Virus record (IMG/VR): IMGVR_UViG_2703718833_000007
Location: 1-64,000 of that record
Source: a virus
Taxonomy: Duplodnaviria > Heunggongvirae > Uroviricota > Caudoviricetes
DNA length: 64,000 nucleotides
Direction: 5' to 3' (one strand)
Each line of letters starts with the position of its first letter. The first letter of the stretch is position 1. Shown in pieces: positions 2,556 to 31,797 of the stretch. A program made the position numbers and the translations under genes. The notes below the pieces were generated by a model that ran no database searches, had not been told where the DNA came from, and saw only the letters and a list, made by a program, of their open reading frames with translations.

Positions 2556-3971
2556 TTAAAAAGATGCGTTATTCTGATTGTTTCGTTGGTTAAAACGGCT
2601 TGTGCGATGATTCATTGACTGAATACACGCTGCGGCTGCGCGCGCCTGGTCGCATGGCAAGATATTACCGTTGTCATCAAACCGCTGGTAAACAGTTCCA
2701 GACTTACCATGACGGTTTTTTGACACAATGATTTCCATGTATTCGCGGGCAACAGACTGCTCGTCGTAATACCCATCGCGGTAAACCATGATTATTCTGT
2801 CGGCATCTTGCTCAAGGTTGCCGGAATCACGAAGATCAGAATTATTAGGGCGCTTGTTTGGTCGTTCCTCAACTCGTCGTGATAATTGCGCCAGCGCTAA
2901 CACTGGAACGCGCAATTCTTTCGCCATCATCTTCAACGACCATGACAATTGCCCAACAGCGAGATCATGACGTTCTGCCTTAGCCAGCTTCATCAACCCT
3001 ATGTAGTCAATCATTACCATACCCAGGTTGGGATGTTCCTGTTTCATCCGTTCCGTGGTGGCGCGTATTTCCTCAACCGTTAACTGCGACGCGTCAACGA
3101 TCCACACATCAAGATTAGCAAGTGCGCTCATACCCTGGCCGACATGCGCCCAACCCTCATCATCAAGTTTTACAGGATTGCGCAGGCAGTCAGTTGATAA
3201 ATTACCAGCGCCAGCGATAGCGCGTTCAGTCATCTGATCGAGTGACATTTCAAGCGTGAATAACAAAACGCCAACCCGCTGATCCTTGCTGCCAGGGTAA
3301 GGGCGTTCAGCAGCAGCGCGGGCAATTGCCAGCGCCAACGCAGATTTACCAGACCCAGGGCGTCCGGCGAGAAGCACCAGATCAGTAGCGTTAATGCCGC
3401 CTAACATTTCGTCGAGTGGTTCTATCCCTGTTTTGATGTTGTCAGAATTGACACCGCATTCCATGCGCTTACTTAAAACTTCCGTGTATTCCTGGACAGC
3501 ATCGCGCAACAGAACAGGGATAATCTTGTCTTTCGTTACCTTTAATTTTGAATACCGGGAATCAAAATCTTTCATCGTCTCTTTGACGACCTCAAGCGTC
3601 CCCGTCTCCAGTTTGTAGCGCATATCGTCGATGAGTTCCAACATCTGCCGCCGCTGGTGCTCTTCACGTAGTAGCTGTGCGTATCCCTTCAGGTTGGCAG
3701 CAGACGGGCACGATCTCGCTGTTTGCATTAGCGGTACGAAATTTTCATTACCAATCTCATCACCGACCAGCAATGCATCGATGAGATTCCTGTTTCTGGC
3801 TTGTGCCCGGATAATTTCAAAAGCCCGCTTATACAGCGGAATAGTGAACACTTCAGGATCAAGCGTAGCGAGAACATCTTGCGCGTTAGGGGTTAGGCCA
3901 CCTAACAGCAGCCCGCCGATAACTGACGCCTCACGTTCCTGCCGTAGTGAGTTTATTTGCTCAGTTACCAT
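2556..3971 (-). CDS. DnaB-family replicative DNA helicase
   Basis: 471 aa; Walker A GRPGSGKSALAL and DnaB C-terminal RecA-like domain motifs. Confidence 0.85.
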   Translation of the reverse strand: MVTEQINSLRQEREASVIGGLLLGGLTPNAQDVLATLDPEVFTIPLYKRAFEIIRAQARNRNLIDALLVGDEIGNENFVPLMQTARSCPSAANLKGYAQLLREEHQRRQMLELIDDMRYKLETGTLEVVKETMKDFDSRYSKLKVTKDKIIPVLLRDAVQEYTEVLSKRMECGVNSDNIKTGIEPLDEMLGGINATDLVLLAGRPGSGKSALALAIARAAAERPYPGSKDQRVGVLLFTLEMSLDQMTERAIAGAGNLSTDCLRNPVKLDDEGWAHVGQGMSALANLDVWIVDASQLTVEEIRATTERMKQEHPNLGMVMIDYIGLMKLAKAERHDLAVGQLSWSLKMMAKELRVPVLALAQLSRRVEERPNKRPNNSDLRDSGNLEQDADRIIMVYRDGYYDEQSVAREYMEIIVSKNRHGKSGTVYQRFDDNGNILPCDQARAAAACIQSMNHRTSRFNQRNNQNNASF

Positions 3972-24009: not shown

Positions 24010-24501
24010 ATGATTAGCCAATCGCTGAAAAACCGACTAACTAAGGCGGCGGCTGGTGGAACGTTAGCCATTGCATCTGTTTTGCTTGTATGGGTTGAGG
24101 GTACGGCTTACGAGCCTTATTACGATACCGGAGGCGTGCTAACTGTATGCAATGGCATAACCGGCCATGATGTTGTCCCTGGTAAGAGATATACACCGGA
24201 TGAATGCGAGAGACTTTTGCAAAAGCATTTAACCGTTCACAAAAAGGCGGTTGATCGTTATGTAAAAGTTGACATGAATGATTATCAACGCGCAGCGCTA
24301 ATTAGCTTTTCATACAATATCGGGGTTGACGCTTTCAAAAAATCAACCTTGTTAAAAAAAATAAACAAAGGCGACTTTAAGGGAGCGTGTAAGGAGATGG
24401 ATCGCTGGGTGTATGACAATGGGAGATATATACAAGGCTTAAAGAATCGTCGCGATATTGAACGTGCTATATGTGAATGGGGCGTAACCAATGGAAAGTG
24501 A
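24010..24501 (+). CDS. SAR endolysin (GH24 phage lysozyme with N-terminal signal-anchor-release helix)
   Basis: 163 aa from ATG 24010; weakly hydrophobic Gly/Ala-rich N-terminal helix; lysozyme motifs recalled as similar to phage 21 R. Confidence 0.8.
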   Translation: MISQSLKNRLTKAAAGGTLAIASVLLVWVEGTAYEPYYDTGGVLTVCNGITGHDVVPGKRYTPDECERLLQKHLTVHKKAVDRYVKVDMNDYQRAALISFSYNIGVDAFKKSTLLKKINKGDFKGACKEMDRWVYDNGRYIQGLKNRRDIERAICEWGVTNGK

Positions 24502-25012
24502 TGATGAACTAAAACGAAAGCTACACTACGATCCAGCGACAGGTATTTTCACCTATAAGATTAGTCCTCACGGGAGAATCAAGGCCGGAAGCGTAGCCGG
24601 GTGTAAGCATAAAAGCGGATACATACACATAGGAAGATATAAAGCGCATCGCCTTGCGTGGTTTTTCCATTATGGAGTGTGGCCCGAAAAGGACATTGAC
24701 CATATTAATGGAATAAAAACCGACAACAGGATAGTAAACCTGCGAGAAACAGATGATGCGCATAACTGCAGAAACAAGAAACATATTGCCACTCACACAT
24801 TGTCTGCATTCAGGGGTGTTAGCTACCACAAAACAGAGAGAAGCAAGCCTAAATGGCGAGTAAGAATTACCGACAATGAAGGTAAGCGTATATCTATTGG
24901 TTTATTTGACTCACTAGACGAAGCGATCGCCGCTCGCATTTTGGCGGAAAACTTTTTCTATGGTGAATATGCACCTTCGATGGGTTGCGAGGGTGAAACA
25001 TGGACAAGGTGA
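24491..25012 (+). CDS. HNH endonuclease with AP2 domain, copy 3 (divergent), inserted between endolysin and Rz
   Basis: IDHINGIKTDNRIVNL HNH_3 motif and AP2-like RGV...W segment. Confidence 0.7.
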   Translation: MESDDELKRKLHYDPATGIFTYKISPHGRIKAGSVAGCKHKSGYIHIGRYKAHRLAWFFHYGVWPEKDIDHINGIKTDNRIVNLRETDDAHNCRNKKHIATHTLSAFRGVSYHKTERSKPKWRVRITDNEGKRISIGLFDSLDEAIAARILAENFFYGEYAPSMGCEGETWTR

Positions 25013-25470
25013 AGACGTTAATCATCGCCGCTGTTGTTTGCATCATTGCCGGGCTTGCTGCCGTAACGTGCTATTACCAGGGTGAAACGGCAAGGTTGCA
25101 GGAAGAAGTCACGGTGACGAAAGGCGCGCTAAAAACAGCAAGTAACACTATTCAGCAGATGAAGGAGCGAAACGCAGAACTGTCAAAACTTGATAAGAGG
25201 TATCACGATGAGATTAAAGCTATCAGATCTGACATTGCCGATCTGCGCACTGGCATTGATAACGGCACTATCAGGCTGCGCGTCAACGCAATACCAGTGC
25301 GAGTGTCCGACTCCACCGGAACCGCCAGCCGCATTGATGGAGCCTCCTGTAGACTCACTCCCGACGCTGAATCGGCTTATCTATCCCTCAGAGAACAACT
25401 AAAAGAGAAAGATGCGAAGATAACCGCGCTTCAGGGCTACATCAAAACGCAGTGCTTACGCAAAGAATAA
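25000..25470 (+). CDS. Rz-like i-spanin
   Basis: 156 aa; N-terminal TM helix, coiled-coil periplasmic domain; contains embedded Rz1 frame. Confidence 0.7.
   Translation: MDKVKTLIIAAVVCIIAGLAAVTCYYQGETARLQEEVTVTKGALKTASNTIQQMKERNAELSKLDKRYHDEIKAIRSDIADLRTGIDNGTIRLRVNAIPVRVSDSTGTASRIDGASCRLTPDAESAYLSLREQLKEKDAKITALQGYIKTQCLRKE
25208..25402 (+). CDS. Rz1-like o-spanin (lipoprotein embedded in Rz, alternate frame)
   Basis: 64 aa; signal peptide with LSGC lipobox, proline-rich mature region. Confidence 0.7.
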   Translation: MRLKLSDLTLPICALALITALSGCASTQYQCECPTPPEPPAALMEPPVDSLPTLNRLIYPSENN

Positions 25471-25750
25471 CAGCGCGTGGACGTGTCGCCGTTTCTGCCA
25501 GCCAGCCATAACCGGGCCAATCCTTCCCGCGAGCGACGGCGGAAAAGTCAAAAACACGTAATACCGGATGCACGTCATCCCATTAACAGGTCAGGCGCTA
25601 CCTGGGTAGAAGAAAGCGCCACCCACCAGTTTATAAAATTCTGCAAACGTTACTCACACAGCGCCGTTTTCAGTGTTTTATAGCTGTTTTCACTCCCTGC
25701 TGTGTCCAGTTTTGCGGGGGTTATATTTTTCAGGATAGAGGAATATTCTG

Positions 25751-26335
25751 ATGGCTAAGGCTAAAGGCATTAAGTTGCCTCAATTCAAAGTCCCGCTCTT
25801 TGAGCATACAACAGTTTTCTTTTGCCCGACCCGCGACATGTTCTATGAATTTTGCGAAAAGGCAGGGATCCCAATCGAACCTGATTTCGAACTGGCAGGA
25901 GGATTAACACTTACTTGCACTGGCGAGAAAGGCGGTAACTTCTACGTGATCGCAGTATTCGACAATGAGTTAGGAACTCTGGTGCATGAAGCGGCCCACA
26001 CTACGTTTCACGTATTAAGTGATGTAGGCGTAGTGGCGACCACTGATCCCAGCCATCCGGCAAACGAGACTTATGCTTACATGGTAGGCCGCATCTTTGA
26101 TGCTTTCTTCCCCATCCTGGCGGAATCAAATGAAGCACAGGTGGCAGCAATGCAGGCAGCTGAAGTCGTAGAGAAGGCATTAGAACAGGCAGAAAAGGCG
26201 ACTGATGCAGCAGAGCAGGCAGTAGAGCAGGCAGAGGAGCCGAAAGAAGAGAAAAAACCAGCTAAGAAAGGCAAACGTAAGCCTAAAGCAAAAGAGGCGC
26301 TTGTACCGCGTATTATGAGCTTTAAACGAGGCTGA
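25751..26335 (+). CDS. hypothetical protein with HExxH motif and Lys/Ala/Glu-rich C-terminal tail
   Basis: 194 aa; LVHEAAHTTFH contains HEAAH; basic low-complexity tail. Confidence 0.4.
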   Translation: MAKAKGIKLPQFKVPLFEHTTVFFCPTRDMFYEFCEKAGIPIEPDFELAGGLTLTCTGEKGGNFYVIAVFDNELGTLVHEAAHTTFHVLSDVGVVATTDPSHPANETYAYMVGRIFDAFFPILAESNEAQVAAMQAAEVVEKALEQAEKATDAAEQAVEQAEEPKEEKKPAKKGKRKPKAKEALVPRIMSFKRG

Positions 26336-26337
26336 TT

Positions 26338-26412
26338 ATGATTGACCCGCTCATTATCCTTTCTTCCTGCGTCGCTGTATGGCTGGCGATCATGATATTC
26401 ATTGAAAGCTGA
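26338..26412 (+). CDS. micro-ORF 1 of tandem array: 24-aa single-TM peptide
   Basis: MIDPLIILSSCVAVWLAIMIFIES; GAGG RBS; starts 3 nt after upstream stop. Confidence 0.35.
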   Translation: MIDPLIILSSCVAVWLAIMIFIES

Positions 26413-26422
26413 AGGTGTTCAC

Positions 26423-26497
26423 ATGAATATTTACGATCTCATCTGGTGGTCGTTGGTCGCCGTCATTATCTATTTATGGTGGAAGAATGTTGTATAG
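26423..26497 (+). CDS. micro-ORF 2: 24-aa single-TM peptide
   Basis: MNIYDLIWWSLVAVIIYLWWKNVV; AAGGTG RBS. Confidence 0.35.
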   Translation: MNIYDLIWWSLVAVIIYLWWKNVV

Positions 26498-26505
26498 GTG
26501 ACGGC

Positions 26506-26604
26506 ATGGATATATTCGAATTACTGGCGATTATGTGCGGAATGATGTTAGGCACTGTCGCCATAATCATCATCATCGGCCTTGTTATGGGTAGCATCAA
26601 ATGA
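26506..26604 (+). CDS. micro-ORF 3: 32-aa single-TM peptide
   Basis: MDIFELLAIMCGMMLGTVAIIIIIGLVMGSIK; AGGTGA RBS. Confidence 0.35.
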   Translation: MDIFELLAIMCGMMLGTVAIIIIIGLVMGSIK

Positions 26605-26681
26605 ACGCATACGAAATGCTATTGCTGGTGGCTGTTATTACAGTTATCGCCGTTGATTTTTATCGAGGGTTGAAAAGATGA
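26601..26681 (+). CDS. micro-ORF 4: 26-aa single-TM peptide
   Basis: MNAYEMLLLVAVITVIAVDFYRGLKR; ATGA overlap with ORF 3. Confidence 0.35.
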   Translation: MNAYEMLLLVAVITVIAVDFYRGLKR

Positions 26682-26749
26682 GAGAAGCAGACTTCTTTTG
26701 CATGATTATGGTGATCGTCATCGTTGCCGTGCTTTTAAGCGTTAACTGA
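26678..26749 (+). CDS. micro-ORF 5: 23-aa single-TM peptide
   Basis: MREADFFCMIMVIVIVAVLLSVN; ATGA overlap with ORF 4. Confidence 0.35.
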   Translation: MREADFFCMIMVIVIVAVLLSVN

Positions 26750-26767
26750 ATCGCAGGGGGGTTAAAA

Positions 26768-26836
26768 ATGAAATGGCTTGATTTCTTTTTCCTGATCGTT
26801 GCGATTGTTCTTACCATGACCGCGCTGACTCAATAG
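26768..26836 (+). CDS. micro-ORF 6: 22-aa single-TM peptide
   Basis: MKWLDFFFLIVAIVLTMTALTQ; GGGGGG RBS. Confidence 0.35.
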   Translation: MKWLDFFFLIVAIVLTMTALTQ

Positions 26837-26905
26837 GTTATGGCTTGGACGCGCATTTTATGCGCTTCCTAAACTTAGTAAGCCAAAGAAAGAGAATGGC
26901 AAGCA

Positions 26906-26989
26906 ATGAAATATCTATCAAGTTGGTTGGGTGTATCAATATACTTCGCAACATTAATCGAGTGTTTATATATAGTGAATAAATTTTAA
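26906..26989 (+). CDS. micro-ORF 7: 27-aa hydrophobic peptide (weaker RBS)
   Basis: MKYLSSWLGVSIYFATLIECLYIVNKF; ends 10 nt before terminase small subunit start. Confidence 0.25.
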   Translation: MKYLSSWLGVSIYFATLIECLYIVNKF

Positions 26990-26999
26990 GAGGTGAATT

Positions 27000-27485
27000 A
27001 TGGCCCGCACTAAAAAGGCAAAGGCTGACGATAAAAAGCCAGCAGCTAAAAAGGTGGGCCGTCCGCATGGTTATACCGAAGAAAAGGCATTAGAGATCTG
27101 TGAGCTGGTGGCGGACGGTCAGAGCGTTAACAAAATTTCAAAAATGCCAGGTATGCCAACACGTTCGACAATCCTTAAGTGGTTCCGTGATGTGCCTGAA
27201 TTTTCGGACATGTACGTGAGAGCGAAGGAGATCGGTTTTGAGGTATTAGCTGATGAGATCATCGATATAGCTGACGCAGCTGAGAATATTGATAAGGATG
27301 AATTGCGCCGCCATCAATTAATGATTGAAACCCGTAAATGGCTATTGGCAAAACTGCAACCGCGTAAATATGGTGAACGCGTCACGCAGGAAATCGTTGG
27401 TAACAGGGAGGAATCACCCGTCCAGGTTGAAGTCACGAAAGAAGAGATCGCCCGCATCGTCCAGGAAGTAGAAGACGAGGTGTGA
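27000..27485 (+). CDS. terminase small subunit
   Basis: 161 aa; basic N-terminus, HTH-like segment, directly upstream of large terminase; GAGGTGA RBS. Confidence 0.65.
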   Translation: MARTKKAKADDKKPAAKKVGRPHGYTEEKALEICELVADGQSVNKISKMPGMPTRSTILKWFRDVPEFSDMYVRAKEIGFEVLADEIIDIADAAENIDKDELRRHQLMIETRKWLLAKLQPRKYGERVTQEIVGNREESPVQVEVTKEEIARIVQEVEDEV

Positions 27486-28966
27486 TTATGTTGACAATCA
27501 AAGAACGAGTTATTCAGTCCAAATGTGAAAACGATGGCCTGTTTTTCAATCGCTATTTCTATAAACAAGCGAACGGAACGAAGATGTTAATCTCAGGCCA
27601 TCATTTAGCTATCCGTGATGCACTGCAACGCGTTATTAATGGTGAGATCACCCGCCTCATCATTAACATCCCCCCAGGGTACGGCAAAACCATGATCGCA
27701 ACTATCAACATGATGGCGCGGTCACTCGCAATAAATCCCCGCACAAGATTCCTTCACGTTTCCTATTCCAACAACCTGGCATTACTCAATTCCTCGACTG
27801 TAAGAAACATGATCTGTACGCCTGAATATCAGGCAATGTGGCCCATGAAGATCCGCAACGATGCCAACAGTAAATCGATGTGGTGGACTGAATACGGTGG
27901 CGGCGTGTATGCAACGTCATCGCTTGGCCAGGTAACTGGGTTCCGTGCAGGGTATATGGAACCGGGATTTAACGGCGCGTTAATCATCGACGACCCATTA
28001 AAACCGGCTGACGCTTACTCTGACGTGGTGAGAAAGCAGGTAAACACCAACTATAACGACACACTTGCTTCACGTCTGGCAGTGCAAACAACGCCTGTCA
28101 TCGTCATCATGCAGCGCATCCACTACGATGATTTGTCCGGCTACTTGCTACGCGGTGGGAGCGGTGAAAAGTGGTATCACCTTAACCTGCCAGTGAAGAT
28201 CGACAATAGCGTTGACTATCGGGATTTGTACCCTGAAAACGAGTTCGCAATCCCTATCGCTCACAACCTGCCTGATGGCTGGCTGTGGCCTAAAAAGCAC
28301 AATGACGCCCATGAAGCTGGACTGAAAGCACACAGGCGGTCATTTGAAGCCCAGTACATGCAGCGCCCGCGTAAATTCGACGAAGAGGGTGCATTGTGGA
28401 CTGAAGCCATGATAACCGCAGCGCACCGGATGCAGATAACGCAGGATAAGGTTCGCACGGTGATAGCCATAGACCCGGCGACAACGTCATCTGACGAATC
28501 GGACGAAACGGGGATCGTGGCATGTTCCGCCTATGGTGGCGGCAAGAATGCTCAGTATTCTGTTGATGGCGACTACTCAGGCCGCATGTCTCCTAACGAC
28601 TGGGCGCAAGCCTCAATGAACGCCTACAACATCCATGAAGCTGACGCGATAGTTATCGAAACCAACCAGGGCGGCGAAATGGCAGAGGCCACGTTGCGTA
28701 ATGCCGGATTCAAGGGCCGCATTGTTAAGGTGCACGCAAGCAAAGGTAAGTTCGCCCGTGCTGAACCAATATCCGCACTATATGCGCAGGGAAGGGTAGC
28801 CCACACTGGCAGCCTGTACACGCTGGAGAATCAAATGATGGAATACGTGCCAGCCACCGCAAAAAAATCCCCTGACCGTATGGACGCTATGGTATGGGGA
28901 ATCACTGAATTAAGCCAACCGCAGGCAATGGGCCTCATGTTACCGAAGCGCCTGCGCGGATTTTAA
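27482..28966 (+). CDS. terminase large subunit (likely ATG start at 27488)
   Basis: 494 aa; P-loop-like PPGYGKT, ATPase plus nuclease arrangement. Confidence 0.8.
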   Translation: MIMLTIKERVIQSKCENDGLFFNRYFYKQANGTKMLISGHHLAIRDALQRVINGEITRLIINIPPGYGKTMIATINMMARSLAINPRTRFLHVSYSNNLALLNSSTVRNMICTPEYQAMWPMKIRNDANSKSMWWTEYGGGVYATSSLGQVTGFRAGYMEPGFNGALIIDDPLKPADAYSDVVRKQVNTNYNDTLASRLAVQTTPVIVIMQRIHYDDLSGYLLRGGSGEKWYHLNLPVKIDNSVDYRDLYPENEFAIPIAHNLPDGWLWPKKHNDAHEAGLKAHRRSFEAQYMQRPRKFDEEGALWTEAMITAAHRMQITQDKVRTVIAIDPATTSSDESDETGIVACSAYGGGKNAQYSVDGDYSGRMSPNDWAQASMNAYNIHEADAIVIETNQGGEMAEATLRNAGFKGRIVKVHASKGKFARAEPISALYAQGRVAHTGSLYTLENQMMEYVPATAKKSPDRMDAMVWGITELSQPQAMGLMLPKRLRGF

Positions 28967-30415: not shown

Positions 30416-31301
30416 CACCGAAGACCCGACCATGACAGGGAAGTTAAGGTCTGGTGCTATCAAGCGTTTTAAATCCTGCCTGAAGAAAGTTGCGGATCCG
30501 TATATTGCCATACTGGACAGGATGCAATATAGCCTTGCTGTTAATAAAAAATACACCTTTCAGATCTACATTGACGAATTACATGACTTGCTGGAAGACG
30601 CCAGCGACATGATTGATGAGATATTCGAGTTAACAGACCCGGAAAACTTCTGGTTCTGGCAGGAATACGTGAAAGTGGCATATCAGCGCGGCACTTCCCA
30701 GGAATACGCTAACCTCGCTAACCAGTCAGTCACATATTCCAGGGCTTACCCTGAAGTGTCGGCGGTATTAACCAGTCAGACCTATCGAACGCGCCTTGCT
30801 CTGGTGCGTACCCGCGTATTTGAAGAGATGCGCGGGCTGACAGCACAGATCAAGAAGGATATGGCACGCCGATTAACTGAAGGCATGGCCCGTGGTTTAA
30901 ATCCACTTGAAATAGCGCGCACATTGCAGCAGGAAACGCAATTACCGCTATACCGGTGCAAACGTATTGCCCGCACTGAAATATGCACAGCGTTGCGCAC
31001 AGCGCGTATGGATGAGGCTGAAGCGGCGACGGAAGAGCTTAATCTGCGCACTATGCAGATGCACATTTCGGCATTGTCGCCGACTACCAGGTTGTCACAC
31101 GCACAGCGGCACGGGAAAACTTACACCATAGAAGAGCAGCGCGAATGGTGGAGCAGATCCCCAAATTCAATTAACTGCAAATGTAGCACTATTACCGTGA
31201 TGGTCGATGAATCTGGTAACATATTAAACAAACGAATATTAGAGCGGGCGCAAGAAAATTATAAGGTTGCGCACGCTAAATATGGCGAAGATTGGGAGTG
31301 A
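30405..31301 (+). CDS. head morphogenesis protein (Mu gpF / SPP1 gp7-like)
   Basis: About 298 aa following portal; start ATG 30405 overlaps portal stop. Confidence 0.55.
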   Translation: MPSNTEDPTMTGKLRSGAIKRFKSCLKKVADPYIAILDRMQYSLAVNKKYTFQIYIDELHDLLEDASDMIDEIFELTDPENFWFWQEYVKVAYQRGTSQEYANLANQSVTYSRAYPEVSAVLTSQTYRTRLALVRTRVFEEMRGLTAQIKKDMARRLTEGMARGLNPLEIARTLQQETQLPLYRCKRIARTEICTALRTARMDEAEAATEELNLRTMQMHISALSPTTRLSHAQRHGKTYTIEEQREWWSRSPNSINCKCSTITVMVDESGNILNKRILERAQENYKVAHAKYGEDWE

Positions 31302-31305
31302 TATC

Positions 31306-31797
31306 GTGAATGAAGTGATTAATTGGCATGATTATTTCACGTATAAATCAGGCCATATTTACTGGAAAATATCACCAACTAACGGCGTTCATATTGGCGA
31401 CCATGCGGGGAATGACAGCGGGTTGGGCTACTTGCGTGTTCGTGTCAATTATAGGTTATATCTTGTTAGTAGAATCATATGGGAAATGCACAACGGCCCG
31501 ATCCCGGAAGGGTACGAGATAGACCACATTGACCATAACACACTAAATAACGATATAACGAACCTAAGGATGGTAAGTCATTACGAAAATACACTAAATG
31601 CGCCAATGAGAAAGGATAATAAAAGCGGTTATGTCGGTGTTATTTGGCATAAGGCGTCCCGTAAATGGATGGCGTATGTACAAGTGAATAAGAAGCGCAA
31701 ACATTTAGGTTTATTTGACAGCATAGATAAGGCCGTAGCTGCCCGCCGACAGGCTGAAAAAGAGAACAATTATCACCCAAATCACGGGAGTGTTTAA
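31306..31797 (+). CDS. HNH endonuclease with AP2 domain, copy 4
   Basis: GTG start 31306 with GGAG RBS; IDHIDHN HNH_3 motif; AP2-like segment; C-terminal NYHPNHG. Confidence 0.75.
   Translation: MNEVINWHDYFTYKSGHIYWKISPTNGVHIGDHAGNDSGLGYLRVRVNYRLYLVSRIIWEMHNGPIPEGYEIDHIDHNTLNNDITNLRMVSHYENTLNAPMRKDNKSGYVGVIWHKASRKWMAYVQVNKKRKHLGLFDSIDKAVAARRQAEKENNYHPNHGSV

What the first reader, a model, noticed from the sequence alone, without database searches (positions are those of the whole stretch)
25751..26335. HExxH-motif protein with Lys/Ala/Glu-rich tail heading the micro-ORF array
The 194-aa ORF after Rz contains LVHEAAHTTFH, a candidate zinc-metallopeptidase motif, followed by a low-complexity charged tail. 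It is immediately upstream of, and likely co-transcribed with, the seven micro-peptide ORFs, so a processing or regulatory relationship is conceivable. There is no typical ORF in the 280 bp upstream, leaving room for a promoter.
Basis: inference. Interest (0 to 1): 0.4.

Follow-up and report, generated by a model that had tools for sequence, protein, structure and literature searches.

The report
Small phage zinc-protease-like protein with tail
The ORF is a real, strongly conserved gene of an mEp021-type E. coli phage that encodes a free-standing zincin-type (HExxH…E) metallopeptidase domain related to the module inside phage N4's injected RNA polymerase, extended by a charged helical tail; it belongs to a widespread but untested phage family, and nothing links it to the neighbouring micro-peptide genes.

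Summary
ORF 25751-26335 (+) encodes 194 aa with LVHEAAHTTFH and an Ala/Glu/Lys-rich tail, and it sits between Rz/Rz1 and seven micro-ORFs in an mEp021-like (mEpimmI) coliphage.

- **Motif.** HExxH is not a chance motif. Across 121-126 relatives down to ~25% identity, G51, H79, E80, H83 and E106 are invariant, and the His-to-Glu spacing is 19-20 residues, as in gluzincins.
- **Fold.** The AlphaFold model (pLDDT 91) has the zincin topology: a β-sheet and helix, the HExxH helix, then the Glu helix.
- **Relatives.** Profile-profile comparison links the family (phrog_1365; no Pfam or NCBIfam model) to the zincin module of N4 virion RNA polymerase at 92.7% probability; shuffled controls give ≤1.5%. 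The link to ArdC is weaker. PDB fold searches were inconclusive, and no member has a demonstrated activity.
- **Tail.** The core is under strong purifying selection (dN/dS 0.02-0.13). Tails of 30 aa or more occur in 10 of 126 members; here the basic C-terminal motif is conserved.
- **Micro-ORF link: not supported.** Homologs in P22-like phages and other contexts have no micro-ORFs, the array's copy number varies, and mEp013 has another gene inserted between the two.
- **Own promoter: no evidence found.**

Verdict: a new member of a known kind, of modest interest.

The parts
25751..26335 (+). CDS of 194 aa plus stop: solo zincin-like metallopeptidase domain with a charged C-terminal tail (homolog of mEp021 gp49)
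   Evidence: ORF listing. It is 97% identical to E. coli prophage proteins and is annotated hypothetical in mEp021 and its relatives. phrog_1365, E 6e-30.
25738..25742 (+). Shine-Dalgarno GAGGA, 8 nt upstream of the ATG
   Evidence: Read directly from the sequence. It is conserved in the sister phages.
25751..26128 (+). Zincin core domain, residues 1-126: β-strands 11-13, 21-25, 51-57 and 63-69; helices 28-38, 44-48, 74-91 and from 103
   Evidence: Family members match residues ~1-125. AF2 model pLDDT 91.4. dN/dS 0.02-0.13. hhalign to the N4 vRNAP zincin module gives 92.7% over residues 23-92.
25901..25903 (+). Gly51, invariant, at the start of the strand preceding the active-site helix (probable substrate-binding edge strand; inferred)
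   Evidence: 126/126; invariant; aligned to the conserved Gly of the N4 module.
25985..25999 (+). HExxH (H79-E80-A-A-H83): two metal-ligand histidines and the catalytic base
   Evidence: Present in 137/140 relatives; invariant in full-length members.
26063..26080 (+). NETYAY: E106 is the predicted third metal ligand on the 'glutamate helix'; Y110 is >90% conserved
   Evidence: E106 126/126, N105 76/126, Y110 120/126. The H83-to-E spacing is 19-20 in 113/126 members and 23 here, because of a lineage-specific SHPA insertion.
26129..26239 (+). Ala/Glu-rich helical stalk, residues 127-163, continuous with the Glu helix; possible Ala-zipper coiled coil
   Evidence: The model has a single helix 103-161. 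Heptad a/d positions are 74% hydrophobic or Ala versus 45% overall. Length and sequence vary between sister phages. Weak Pfam Alanine_zipper hit, E 0.15.
26240..26332 (+). Basic C-terminal motif, residues 164-194: PKEEKKPAKKGKRKPKAKEALVPRIMSFKRG (last 25 aa net +9)
   Evidence: Conserved even in P0118 (60% core identity) and recognisable in P0121. pLDDT ~67, no regular structure.
25471..25750 (+). Rz-to-ORF spacer with no demonstrable promoter; probably read through from the Q-dependent late promoter
   Evidence: No + strand sigma-70-like site. Fold z = 0.02. No Rfam match. Conservation is similar to the flanking genes, with a 58-bp indel. Terminators are predicted here in the mEp021 and mEp013 records.
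26338..26989 (+). Adjacent array of seven micro-ORFs (22-32 aa, each one hydrophobic helix). This is context only; no functional link was shown.
   Evidence: Absent next to homologs elsewhere.

Best explanation
The gene encodes a cytoplasmic, late-expressed accessory protein. Its first ~126 residues form a free-standing zincin-like metallopeptidase (MPTase) domain of the gluzincin type.

Proposed catalytic site (inferred): H79 and H83 on the active-site helix and E106 on the next helix hold a divalent metal, Zn2+ or possibly Mn2+. E80 activates the metal-bound water that attacks a peptide bond. The invariant-Gly51 strand lines the substrate cleft.

Proposed tail function (inferred): in this lineage the glutamate helix continues into a ~40-residue Ala/Glu stalk that may oligomerise, and it ends in a conserved Lys/Arg-rich peptide. 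I infer that this peptide tethers the enzyme to a polyanionic partner, most plausibly DNA, or else to an acidic protein surface or its own acidic stalk.

Proposed role (inferred): the gene lies in the Q-dependent late operon, in a slot between the lysis and terminase genes that P22-like phages also use for it. By analogy with MPTase modules of polyvalent proteins, the likeliest role is cleavage of a host or phage protein during late infection or establishment. It is not needed for basic morphogenesis.

Shown: gene reality, conservation of the ligand set, zincin topology of the model, homology to the N4 vRNAP zincin module, and variable genomic contexts. Inferred: metal binding, peptidase activity, tail function and biological target.
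For: - Real gene. ORF with Shine-Dalgarno sequence; core dN/dS 0.02-0.13; in 32/5426 complete E. coli genomes as a single prophage copy.
- Conserved site. 136 cluster representatives, mostly ~120-aa solo proteins; HExxH in 137/140; invariant G51, H79, E80, H83, E106; H-to-E spacing 19-20 in 113/126. The same H, H, E ligand set was seen crystallographically in ArdC (H201, H205, E229; PMC7213743).
- Fold. AF2 model pLDDT 91.4 with a β-sheet plus N-terminal helix, the HExxH helix and the Glu helix, which is the MPTase core as defined in PMC5512222.
- Structural matches. 26 BFVD matches at E<=1e-3 to small phage proteins, including 'SprT-like family protein'; a 'Metalloprotease' entry lies just outside at E 5.5e-3.
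- Profile comparisons. hhalign to the N4-type vRNAP zincin profile: 92.7%, E 4e-7, 62 columns spanning β2-α1-β-β-HExxH helix, against <=1.5% for reversed and 20 shuffled controls. To the ArdC-type profile: 88.7%, controls <=0.9%. Weak PDB profile hits are all zincins.
- Independent names for homologs: 'PolyVal Metallopeptidase superfamily domain' and 'SprT-like family protein'.
- Late-operon, accessory position. Between Rz and TerS here, in ST64T and in a P22-like metagenomic phage; in the P22 ant moron as hkcC, function unknown.
- Tail. The basic terminal motif is conserved across 60%-identity relatives. Similar acidic-then-basic tails occur in distant members encoded in ParB/helicase clusters.
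Against: - No member of the family, nor the N4 C1 module, has demonstrated protease activity. ArdC's anti-restriction function did not require its metal-ligand Glu.
- No Pfam or NCBIfam model reaches threshold. SprT-like hits cover only ~20 residues around HExxH.
- I could not inspect model coordinates, so ligand geometry is unverified.
- The DNA-tethering role of the tail rests on composition only, and no other protein in the window shares the motif.
- gp49 is not among the proteins labelled as virion components in the mEp021 record. This argues weakly against packaging and says nothing about the target.
Confidence: 0.6

Rival explanations
1. The zincin scaffold is retained, but the biological function is non-proteolytic: a binding, decoy or structural role. 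ArdC's anti-restriction activity is independent of its metal site, and the N4 C1 subdomain is so far described only as a structural part of the vRNAP C-terminal domain.
For: ArdC E229A keeps its function. The N4 C1 module has no reported activity. No family member has been characterised.
Against: All four catalytic or ligand residues, including the general base E80, are kept in 125-126 of 126 diverse solo proteins. That is hard to explain without catalysis, because inactive zincin homologs usually lose E or H (established knowledge of pseudo-proteases).
Confidence: 0.18
2. One reading: the enzyme processes, modifies or regulates the seven downstream micro-peptides, as a RiPP-like or maturation pair. 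This includes the variant in which HExxH binds Fe(II), as in αKG-HExxH peptide β-hydroxylases.
For: A 2-nt gap to the first micro-ORF on the same strand. Weak TIGR04267 (aKG-HExxH hydroxylase) hits in 9/121 members, best E 0.012. The N4 paper notes that HExxH also occurs in such enzymes.
Against: Homologs in ST64T, P22/HK620, the P0255, P0145/P0166 and P0125 loci have no micro-ORFs nearby. Array copy number varies from 4 to ~11, and in mEp013 an HNH gene separates it from the zincin gene. The peptides are 22-32 aa single hydrophobic helices with no leader/core layout. The invariant Glu at gluzincin spacing and the profile match to MPTases fit a hydrolase.
Confidence: 0.04
3. It is a virion-associated or head-maturation protease: it is packaged through the basic tail and either trims head proteins or is injected with the DNA to act early in the next host, as proposed for MPTases of polyvalent proteins.
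For: The gene lies directly upstream of the terminase, portal and head genes. No canonical prohead protease is recognisable in the head module. The closest relative is a module of an injected virion protein. The polyvalent-protein hypothesis is set out in PMC5512222.
Against: gp49 is not labelled a virion protein in the MS-informed mEp021 record. Most family members lack any tail (median 3 residues). The P22 homolog hkcC sits in a moron and is listed as a gene of unknown function. P22 heads assemble without proteolysis (my own knowledge).
Confidence: 0.1
4. It is a lysis accessory: released to the envelope after holin triggering, it cleaves an envelope protein (for example Lpp or an OM-PG tether), with the Ala-zipper tail mimicking Lpp.
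For: The gene immediately follows the holin-endolysin-Rz/Rz1 cassette. Weak Alanine_zipper (Lpp) Pfam hit at residues 127-162, E 0.15.
Against: There is no signal peptide or TM segment (sequence). The hit is far below threshold. Family members occur in non-lysis contexts: the ant moron and ParB/helicase clusters. Most members lack the tail.
Confidence: 0.04

Closest known systems
Zincin-like MPTase module (C1 subdomain, res. ~2124-2375) of phage N4 virion RNA polymerase gp50 and other 'polyvalent protein' MPTases (Iyer et al. 2017, PMC5512222; N4 structure PMC13434306)
   Same: The conserved pattern is the same: Gly-strand, hydrophobic strand, (S/E)TLxHExxHaxtF, then NExxxa(Y/W)xL. hhalign gives 92.7% probability, E 4e-7, over 62 columns that cover the whole N-terminal subdomain, with clean controls. 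Both are phage-encoded and expressed with late or virion genes.
   Different: This protein is a ~126-aa stand-alone domain, not part of a 3500-aa injected polyprotein. It lacks the ~60-residue insert between the HExxH and Glu helices. Pfam MPTase-PolyVal did not appear among the 25 families listed of 54. No evidence of packaging. Neither protein has a demonstrated activity.
ArdC C-terminal metalloprotease domain (plasmid R388; PMC7213743)
   Same: A gluzincin-type H/H/E ligand set on an active-site helix and a glutamate helix. A protease module is combined with a nucleic-acid-binding part; here the presumed equivalent is the basic tail. It is carried by a mobile element. hhalign gives 88.7% with controls <=0.9%.
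   Different: Only the TLxHExxH segment aligns in a topologically sensible way. [quoted passage not shown] ArdC acts in conjugation recipients against type I restriction, independently of E229.
SprT-like / Spartan / Wss1 zincins (Pfam PF10263)
   Same: A small zincin with an HExxH helix. 28/121 members give weak PF10263 hits. Some BFVD structural matches and one homolog are named SprT-like. A protease combined with a basic, possibly DNA-binding region resembles Spartan/Wss1 (my own knowledge).
   Different: Hits cover only ~20 residues around HExxH at 12 bits, versus a cut-off of 25.6. From my own knowledge, Spartan and Wss1 use a downstream His as third ligand; here no downstream His is conserved (H87 is variable) and the conserved ligand is Glu. 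There is no zinc-ribbon or ZBD.
phrog_1365; P22/HK620 hkcC; ST64T gp49 / phage L Orf129 / ε34 gp70
   Same: True family members: 35-44% identity over the core, the same invariant residues and the same late-operon accessory slots.
   Different: Those proteins are 109-129 aa and lack the tail. All are annotated unknown or hypothetical.

Membership tests
Zincin / gluzincin metallopeptidase superfamily | HExxH on an α-helix, conserved across homologs | tested here: met
   137/140 relatives have it. H79, E80 and H83 are invariant. The motif lies within helix 74-91 of the pLDDT-91 model.
Zincin / gluzincin metallopeptidase superfamily | Third metal ligand Glu on the following 'glutamate helix', ~18-25 residues after the second His | tested here: met
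   E106 is present in 126/126 members and the spacing is 19-20 in 113/126. It lies at the start of helix 103-161.
Zincin / gluzincin metallopeptidase superfamily | Core fold: mixed β-sheet and backing helix N-terminal to the active-site helix; significant structural match to solved zincins | tested here: inconclusive
Zincin / gluzincin metallopeptidase superfamily | Metal binding and peptide-bond hydrolysis | not testable with these tools
   This needs biochemistry. No family member has been characterised.
Polyvalent-protein-type MPTase (Iyer et al. 2017) | Profile-level homology to MPTase modules of polyvalent proteins (N4 vRNAP, ArdC) | tested here: met
   N4 type: 92.7%, E 4e-7, controls <=1.5%. 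ArdC type: 88.7%, controls <=0.9%, but with only a partly sensible alignment.
Polyvalent-protein-type MPTase (Iyer et al. 2017) | Embedded in a multidomain polypeptide that is delivered with the DNA | tested here: not met
   It is a solo 194-aa protein, and family members are mostly ~120 aa. It is not labelled a virion protein in mEp021. It is therefore a free-standing relative, not a polyvalent protein.
Pfam SprT-like (PF10263) | Score above the Pfam gathering threshold over the domain | tested here: not met
   The query has no hit. Members score ~12 bits against a cut-off of 25.6, and only over profile positions 58-78 of 108.
PHROG phrog_1365 | Significant HMM match over the full profile | tested here: met
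   E 6e-30, residues 1-131 against profile positions 3-124 of 127. 120/121 family members match.
αKG-HExxH peptide β-hydroxylase (TIGR04267) | Score above the curated cut-off | tested here: not met
   Only 9/121 members hit, with best E 0.012. The query has no hit.

The most novel reading that the evidence does not exclude
The tailed form is a DNA-tethered protease. The Ala-zipper stalk would oligomerise it and the Lys/Arg-rich C-terminus would load it onto phage DNA at packaging. It would then either be co-injected at low copy or patrol replicating and packaged DNA, cleaving a DNA-bound host defence or nucleoid protein. That would make it a minimal, unfused phage counterpart of ArdC or Spartan. 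A less likely variant is functional coupling to the membrane micro-peptide array.
Probability: 0.12. Interest if true: 0.6.

Novelty: new member of a known kind. Interest (0 to 1): 0.3.

Why it matters
Small solo zincin-like proteins of this family (phrog_1365) are widespread in temperate phages of enterobacteria and beyond. P22 and HK620 (hkcC) and about 0.6% of complete E. coli genomes carry one. Yet the family has no Pfam or NCBIfam model and no known function.

This work places it next to the HExxH module of the N4 virion RNA polymerase and defines its invariant G…HExxH…E signature. That gives a concrete and cheap experiment: an E80A or E106A mutant in P22 or mEp021. It also offers a tractable 120-aa model for the enigmatic MPTase modules of polyvalent proteins.

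It does not overturn anything. If the enzyme turns out to cleave a host defence or DNA-bound protein, that would add a proteolytic class to the known phage counter-defence strategies.

Tried and rejected
- Pfam, NCBIfam and PDB sequence searches with the single protein gave nothing meaningful.
- Single-sequence AlphaFold gave pLDDT 50 and was unusable.
- The second homologous-protein search (profile) mostly re-listed close E. coli relatives. The third (N4 module) found only two fragments, so I built the N4-type and ArdC-type profiles from phage and plasmid records instead.
- Removing the N4 insert did not bring the Glu helix into the hhalign alignment.
- SprT-like membership was rejected because the matches are at motif level only.
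- Literature: hkcC is only ever called 'unknown'. The mEpimmI paper and its supplements never mention gp49.
- Promoter, terminator, Rfam and RNA-fold analyses of the spacer were all negative or unremarkable. Its high conservation is matched by the neighbouring coding blocks.
- A search for the tail motif in other proteins of the window found none.
- The head-maturation-protease idea was considered because no canonical prohead protease is recognisable. I ranked it low because of the P22 homolog and the lack of a virion label.

Full report
**1. What is there.**

The window is a temperate coliphage of the mEp021 / "mEpimmI" group. Nucleotides 25000-27500 match mEp010, mEp044, mEp554, mEp021, mEp515, mEp013 and MagusPhagus at 90-93% identity.

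The local gene order is:
- holin
- lysozyme
- an HNH-AP2 homing-endonuclease-like insert
- Rz, with embedded Rz1
- a 280-nt spacer
- the target ORF
- seven micro-ORFs
- the Sf6-type small terminase
- the large terminase
- portal

It has a GAGGA Shine-Dalgarno sequence 8 nt upstream. Its start is supported by alignment with distant homologs.

**2. It is a real gene under selection.**

Against sister phages the core (codons 1-126) has dN/dS 0.02-0.13 with dS 0.2-0.55. The gene is present as a single chromosomal (prophage) copy in 32 of 5,426 complete E. coli genomes, always annotated "hypothetical protein". It is also abundant in metagenomic assemblies.

**3. The HExxH motif is part of a conserved catalytic-type signature.**

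An exhaustive HMMER search of 1.84 billion cluster representatives found 136 relatives (E<=1e-3). Most are stand-alone proteins of ~120 aa that match residues ~1-125 of the query.
- HExxH is present in 137 of 140 relatives. The exceptions are two apparent fragments and one HKAAH variant.
- In alignments of 121-126 full-length members, at 22-64% identity to the query, the invariant columns are G51, H79, E80, H83 and E106. T76 and Y110 are >90% conserved.
- The spacing from the second His to the invariant Glu is 19-20 residues in 113/126 members. It is 23 here because of a lineage-specific SHPA insertion.

HExxH followed by (N)ExxxY about 19-20 residues after the second His is the gluzincin arrangement. 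The same H, H, E ligand set was seen bound to metal in the ArdC crystal structure (PMC7213743).

**4. Fold.**

Without an alignment AlphaFold failed (pLDDT 50). With the 121-sequence alignment it gave pLDDT 91.4 and pTM 0.76. The predicted elements are:
- strands at 11-13, 21-25, 51-57 and 63-69
- helices at 28-38 and 44-48
- the HExxH helix at 74-91
- a long helix from 103 that begins with E106 and runs to 161
- a less confident basic C-terminus

This is the zincin-like MPTase core as defined by Iyer et al.: a β-sheet flanked by an N-terminal helix, then two helices that carry HExxH and the ligand Glu (PMC5512222).

Fold searches against solved structures were not decisive.
- Foldseek-PDB had no hit below E 0.1.

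Against predicted viral structures there were 26 matches at E<=1e-3. All are small proteins from phages of Erwinia, Pseudomonas, Achromobacter, Ralstonia, Acinetobacter, Eggerthella, crAss-like viruses and others. Nearly all are unnamed. The few named entries in the list are "SprT-like family protein" (E 5e-5), "Metalloprotease" (E 5.5e-3) and baculovirus "SprT" (E 2e-2).

**5. Which known family?**

- **Curated libraries.** They do not cover it. There is no Pfam hit for the query and no NCBIfam model. PHROGs places 120/121 members in phrog_1365, "unknown function".
- **SprT-like.** 28/121 members hit Pfam SprT-like weakly. These matches span only ~20 residues around HExxH, at ~12 bits against a 25.6-bit cut-off. 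Membership is therefore not met. From my own knowledge, Spartan and Wss1 use a downstream His as third ligand, whereas this family's conserved ligand is Glu.
- **Names used by other annotators.** Two homologs are called "PolyVal Metallopeptidase superfamily domain" and "SprT-like family protein".
- **N4 virion RNA polymerase.** I tested the first label directly. The A2 profile had weakly hit the N4 virion RNA polymerase in the PDB, inside the region that Iyer et al. defined as its MPTase (aa 2130-2448). I extracted that region from N4 and ten diverse schitoviruses. Profile-profile comparison gave 92.7% probability, E 4e-7, over 62 columns that cover β2, α1, the invariant-Gly strand, the next strand and the HExxH helix. 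Reversed and 20 column-shuffled templates gave <=1.5%. The N4 module also has an "ALNEFMAWxL" Glu helix that resembles this family's "NEaFCYLL", but only after a ~60-residue insert.
- **ArdC.** A nine-sequence ArdC-type profile scored 88.7% with controls <=0.9%. Only the TLxHExxH stretch aligned in a topologically sensible way.
- **N4 versus ArdC.** These two score only 21% against each other.

The family is therefore a distinct, free-standing clade of the zincin-like MPTases, closest to the N4-type module.

One caveat matters. The N4 structure paper only notes the HExxH motif in subdomain C1 and reports no activity (PMC13434306). ArdC's anti-restriction function survived mutation of its ligand Glu. 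No relative has a demonstrated proteolytic function.

**6. The tail.**

- Beyond the core the median family member has 3 residues. Only 10/126 have 30 or more, and the query's 68 is the longest.
- The tail has two parts. The first is an acidic Ala/Glu helix (net -7) that continues the Glu helix, shows Ala-zipper-like heptad periodicity, and varies in length and sequence between sister phages. The second is a basic terminus (net +9 over the last 25 aa), KKPAKKGKRKPKAKEALVPRIMSFKRG.
- The basic terminus is conserved even in P0118 (60% core identity) and is recognisable in P0121.
- Distant members (28-32% identity) encoded in helicase / ParB-ParB / AAA-ATPase clusters carry analogous tails: a charged helix followed by a basic end.
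- No other protein in the window shares the motif.
- I infer oligomerisation plus tethering to a polyanion such as DNA. This is inference from composition and context only.

**7. Genomic context and the micro-ORF hypothesis.**

The family occupies accessory slots.
- Between Rz and the small terminase here, in ST64T (gp49), and in a P22-like metagenomic phage.
- In the "ant moron" between sieA and mnt in P22 and HK620 (hkcC). This ORF is unannotated in the P22 reference record and is described as "unknown function" in the ε34 genome paper.
- In ParB/helicase clusters.

None of these loci has micro-ORFs.

Within the mEpimmI group the micro-ORF array is clearly real, because the peptide sequences are conserved. 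However, its copy number varies from 4 (mEp021) to about 11 (MagusPhagus), and in mEp013 an HNH gene lies between it and the zincin gene. The peptides are single hydrophobic helices of 22-32 aa without any leader/core organisation. Co-transcription is plausible, but a processing or regulatory relationship has no comparative support.

**8. Promoter.**

The 280-nt spacer has:
- no sigma-70-like site on the + strand
- no Rfam match
- no excess RNA structure (z = 0.02)

Its conservation (96-98% over the first ~100 nt) is matched by the neighbouring coding blocks, and it carries a 58-bp indel. The sister-phage records predict a terminator there, not a promoter. From established knowledge of Q-type antitermination, the likeliest mode of expression is read-through from the Q-dependent late promoter.

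**9. Other roles considered.**

- **Head-maturation or packaged protease.** This is not excluded by the head module, which has a Mu-F-like protein, a 424-aa protein of unknown function that is probably a scaffold, a decoration protein and a major capsid protein, but no recognisable prohead protease. However, gp49 is not labelled a virion protein in the MS-informed mEp021 record, most family members lack a tail, and P22 carries the family only as a gene of unknown function in a moron.
- **Lysis-accessory role.** The only support is adjacency to the lysis cassette and a sub-threshold Lpp-like Ala-zipper hit.
- **αKG-HExxH oxygenase reading.** The only support is motif-level hits.

**10. Verdict.**

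The proposed link to the micro-peptides and the proposed promoter are not supported. The protein is a new, tailed member of a known kind, the zincin-like MPTases of mobile elements, in a family that is common but experimentally untouched. Interest is modest. The main value is a well-defined, easily testable family signature and a small model for the N4-type HExxH module.

Noticed in passing
window 26338-26989 (+): An array of seven tightly packed ATG ORFs of 22-32 aa, each a single hydrophobic TM-like helix (GRAVY 1.0-2.0). The peptide sequences are conserved across mEpimmI phages, but copy number varies from 4 to about 11, with clear paralog groups (e.g. M-x-x-[DE]-D-F-F…IVxIVL). They are unannotated in the mEp021 record. 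Function unknown.
   Followed up: partly
window 24491-25012 (+) and 31267-31797 (+); L011 1627-2112: Two HNH_3+AP2 homing-endonuclease-like genes are inserted in this phage, one between lysozyme and Rz (absent in mEp021) and one between the Mu-F-like and 424-aa head genes. mEp013 carries a different HNH gene directly after the zincin gene. The late operon seems to be a hotspot for homing endonucleases.
   Followed up: partly
L004 (P22 BK000583) 3001-3333, + strand: The P22 reference annotation has no CDS for the hkcC homolog (35% identical to the query core). The ORF overlaps the annotated sieA promoter on the opposite strand.
   Followed up: partly
window 25471-25750: The spacer after Rz is 96-98% conserved over its first ~100 nt, even in a contig whose zincin protein is only 60% identical. 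It carries a 58-bp indel among sister phages. Different annotation pipelines call small ORFs there on either strand. No RNA family or excess structure was found.
   Followed up: yes
L002 10491-12398: The Mu-F-like head morphogenesis gene of the related metagenomic phage (P0118 contig) carries an intein (PF14890).
   Followed up: no
L012 2528-5570; L013 2711-5570: Distant, tail-bearing family members are encoded in a conserved cluster: a divergent ResIII/DEAD helicase, then two ParB_N proteins, an AAA/ABC-like ATPase, and the zincin. This resembles an unfused version of polyvalent-protein domain combinations (ParB + MPTase).
   Followed up: no
L001 1020-1268 (mEp021_41): An 82-aa protein encoded between the Q antiterminator and the holin is labelled 'virion structural protein' in mEp021, an unusual location for a virion component.
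   Followed up: no
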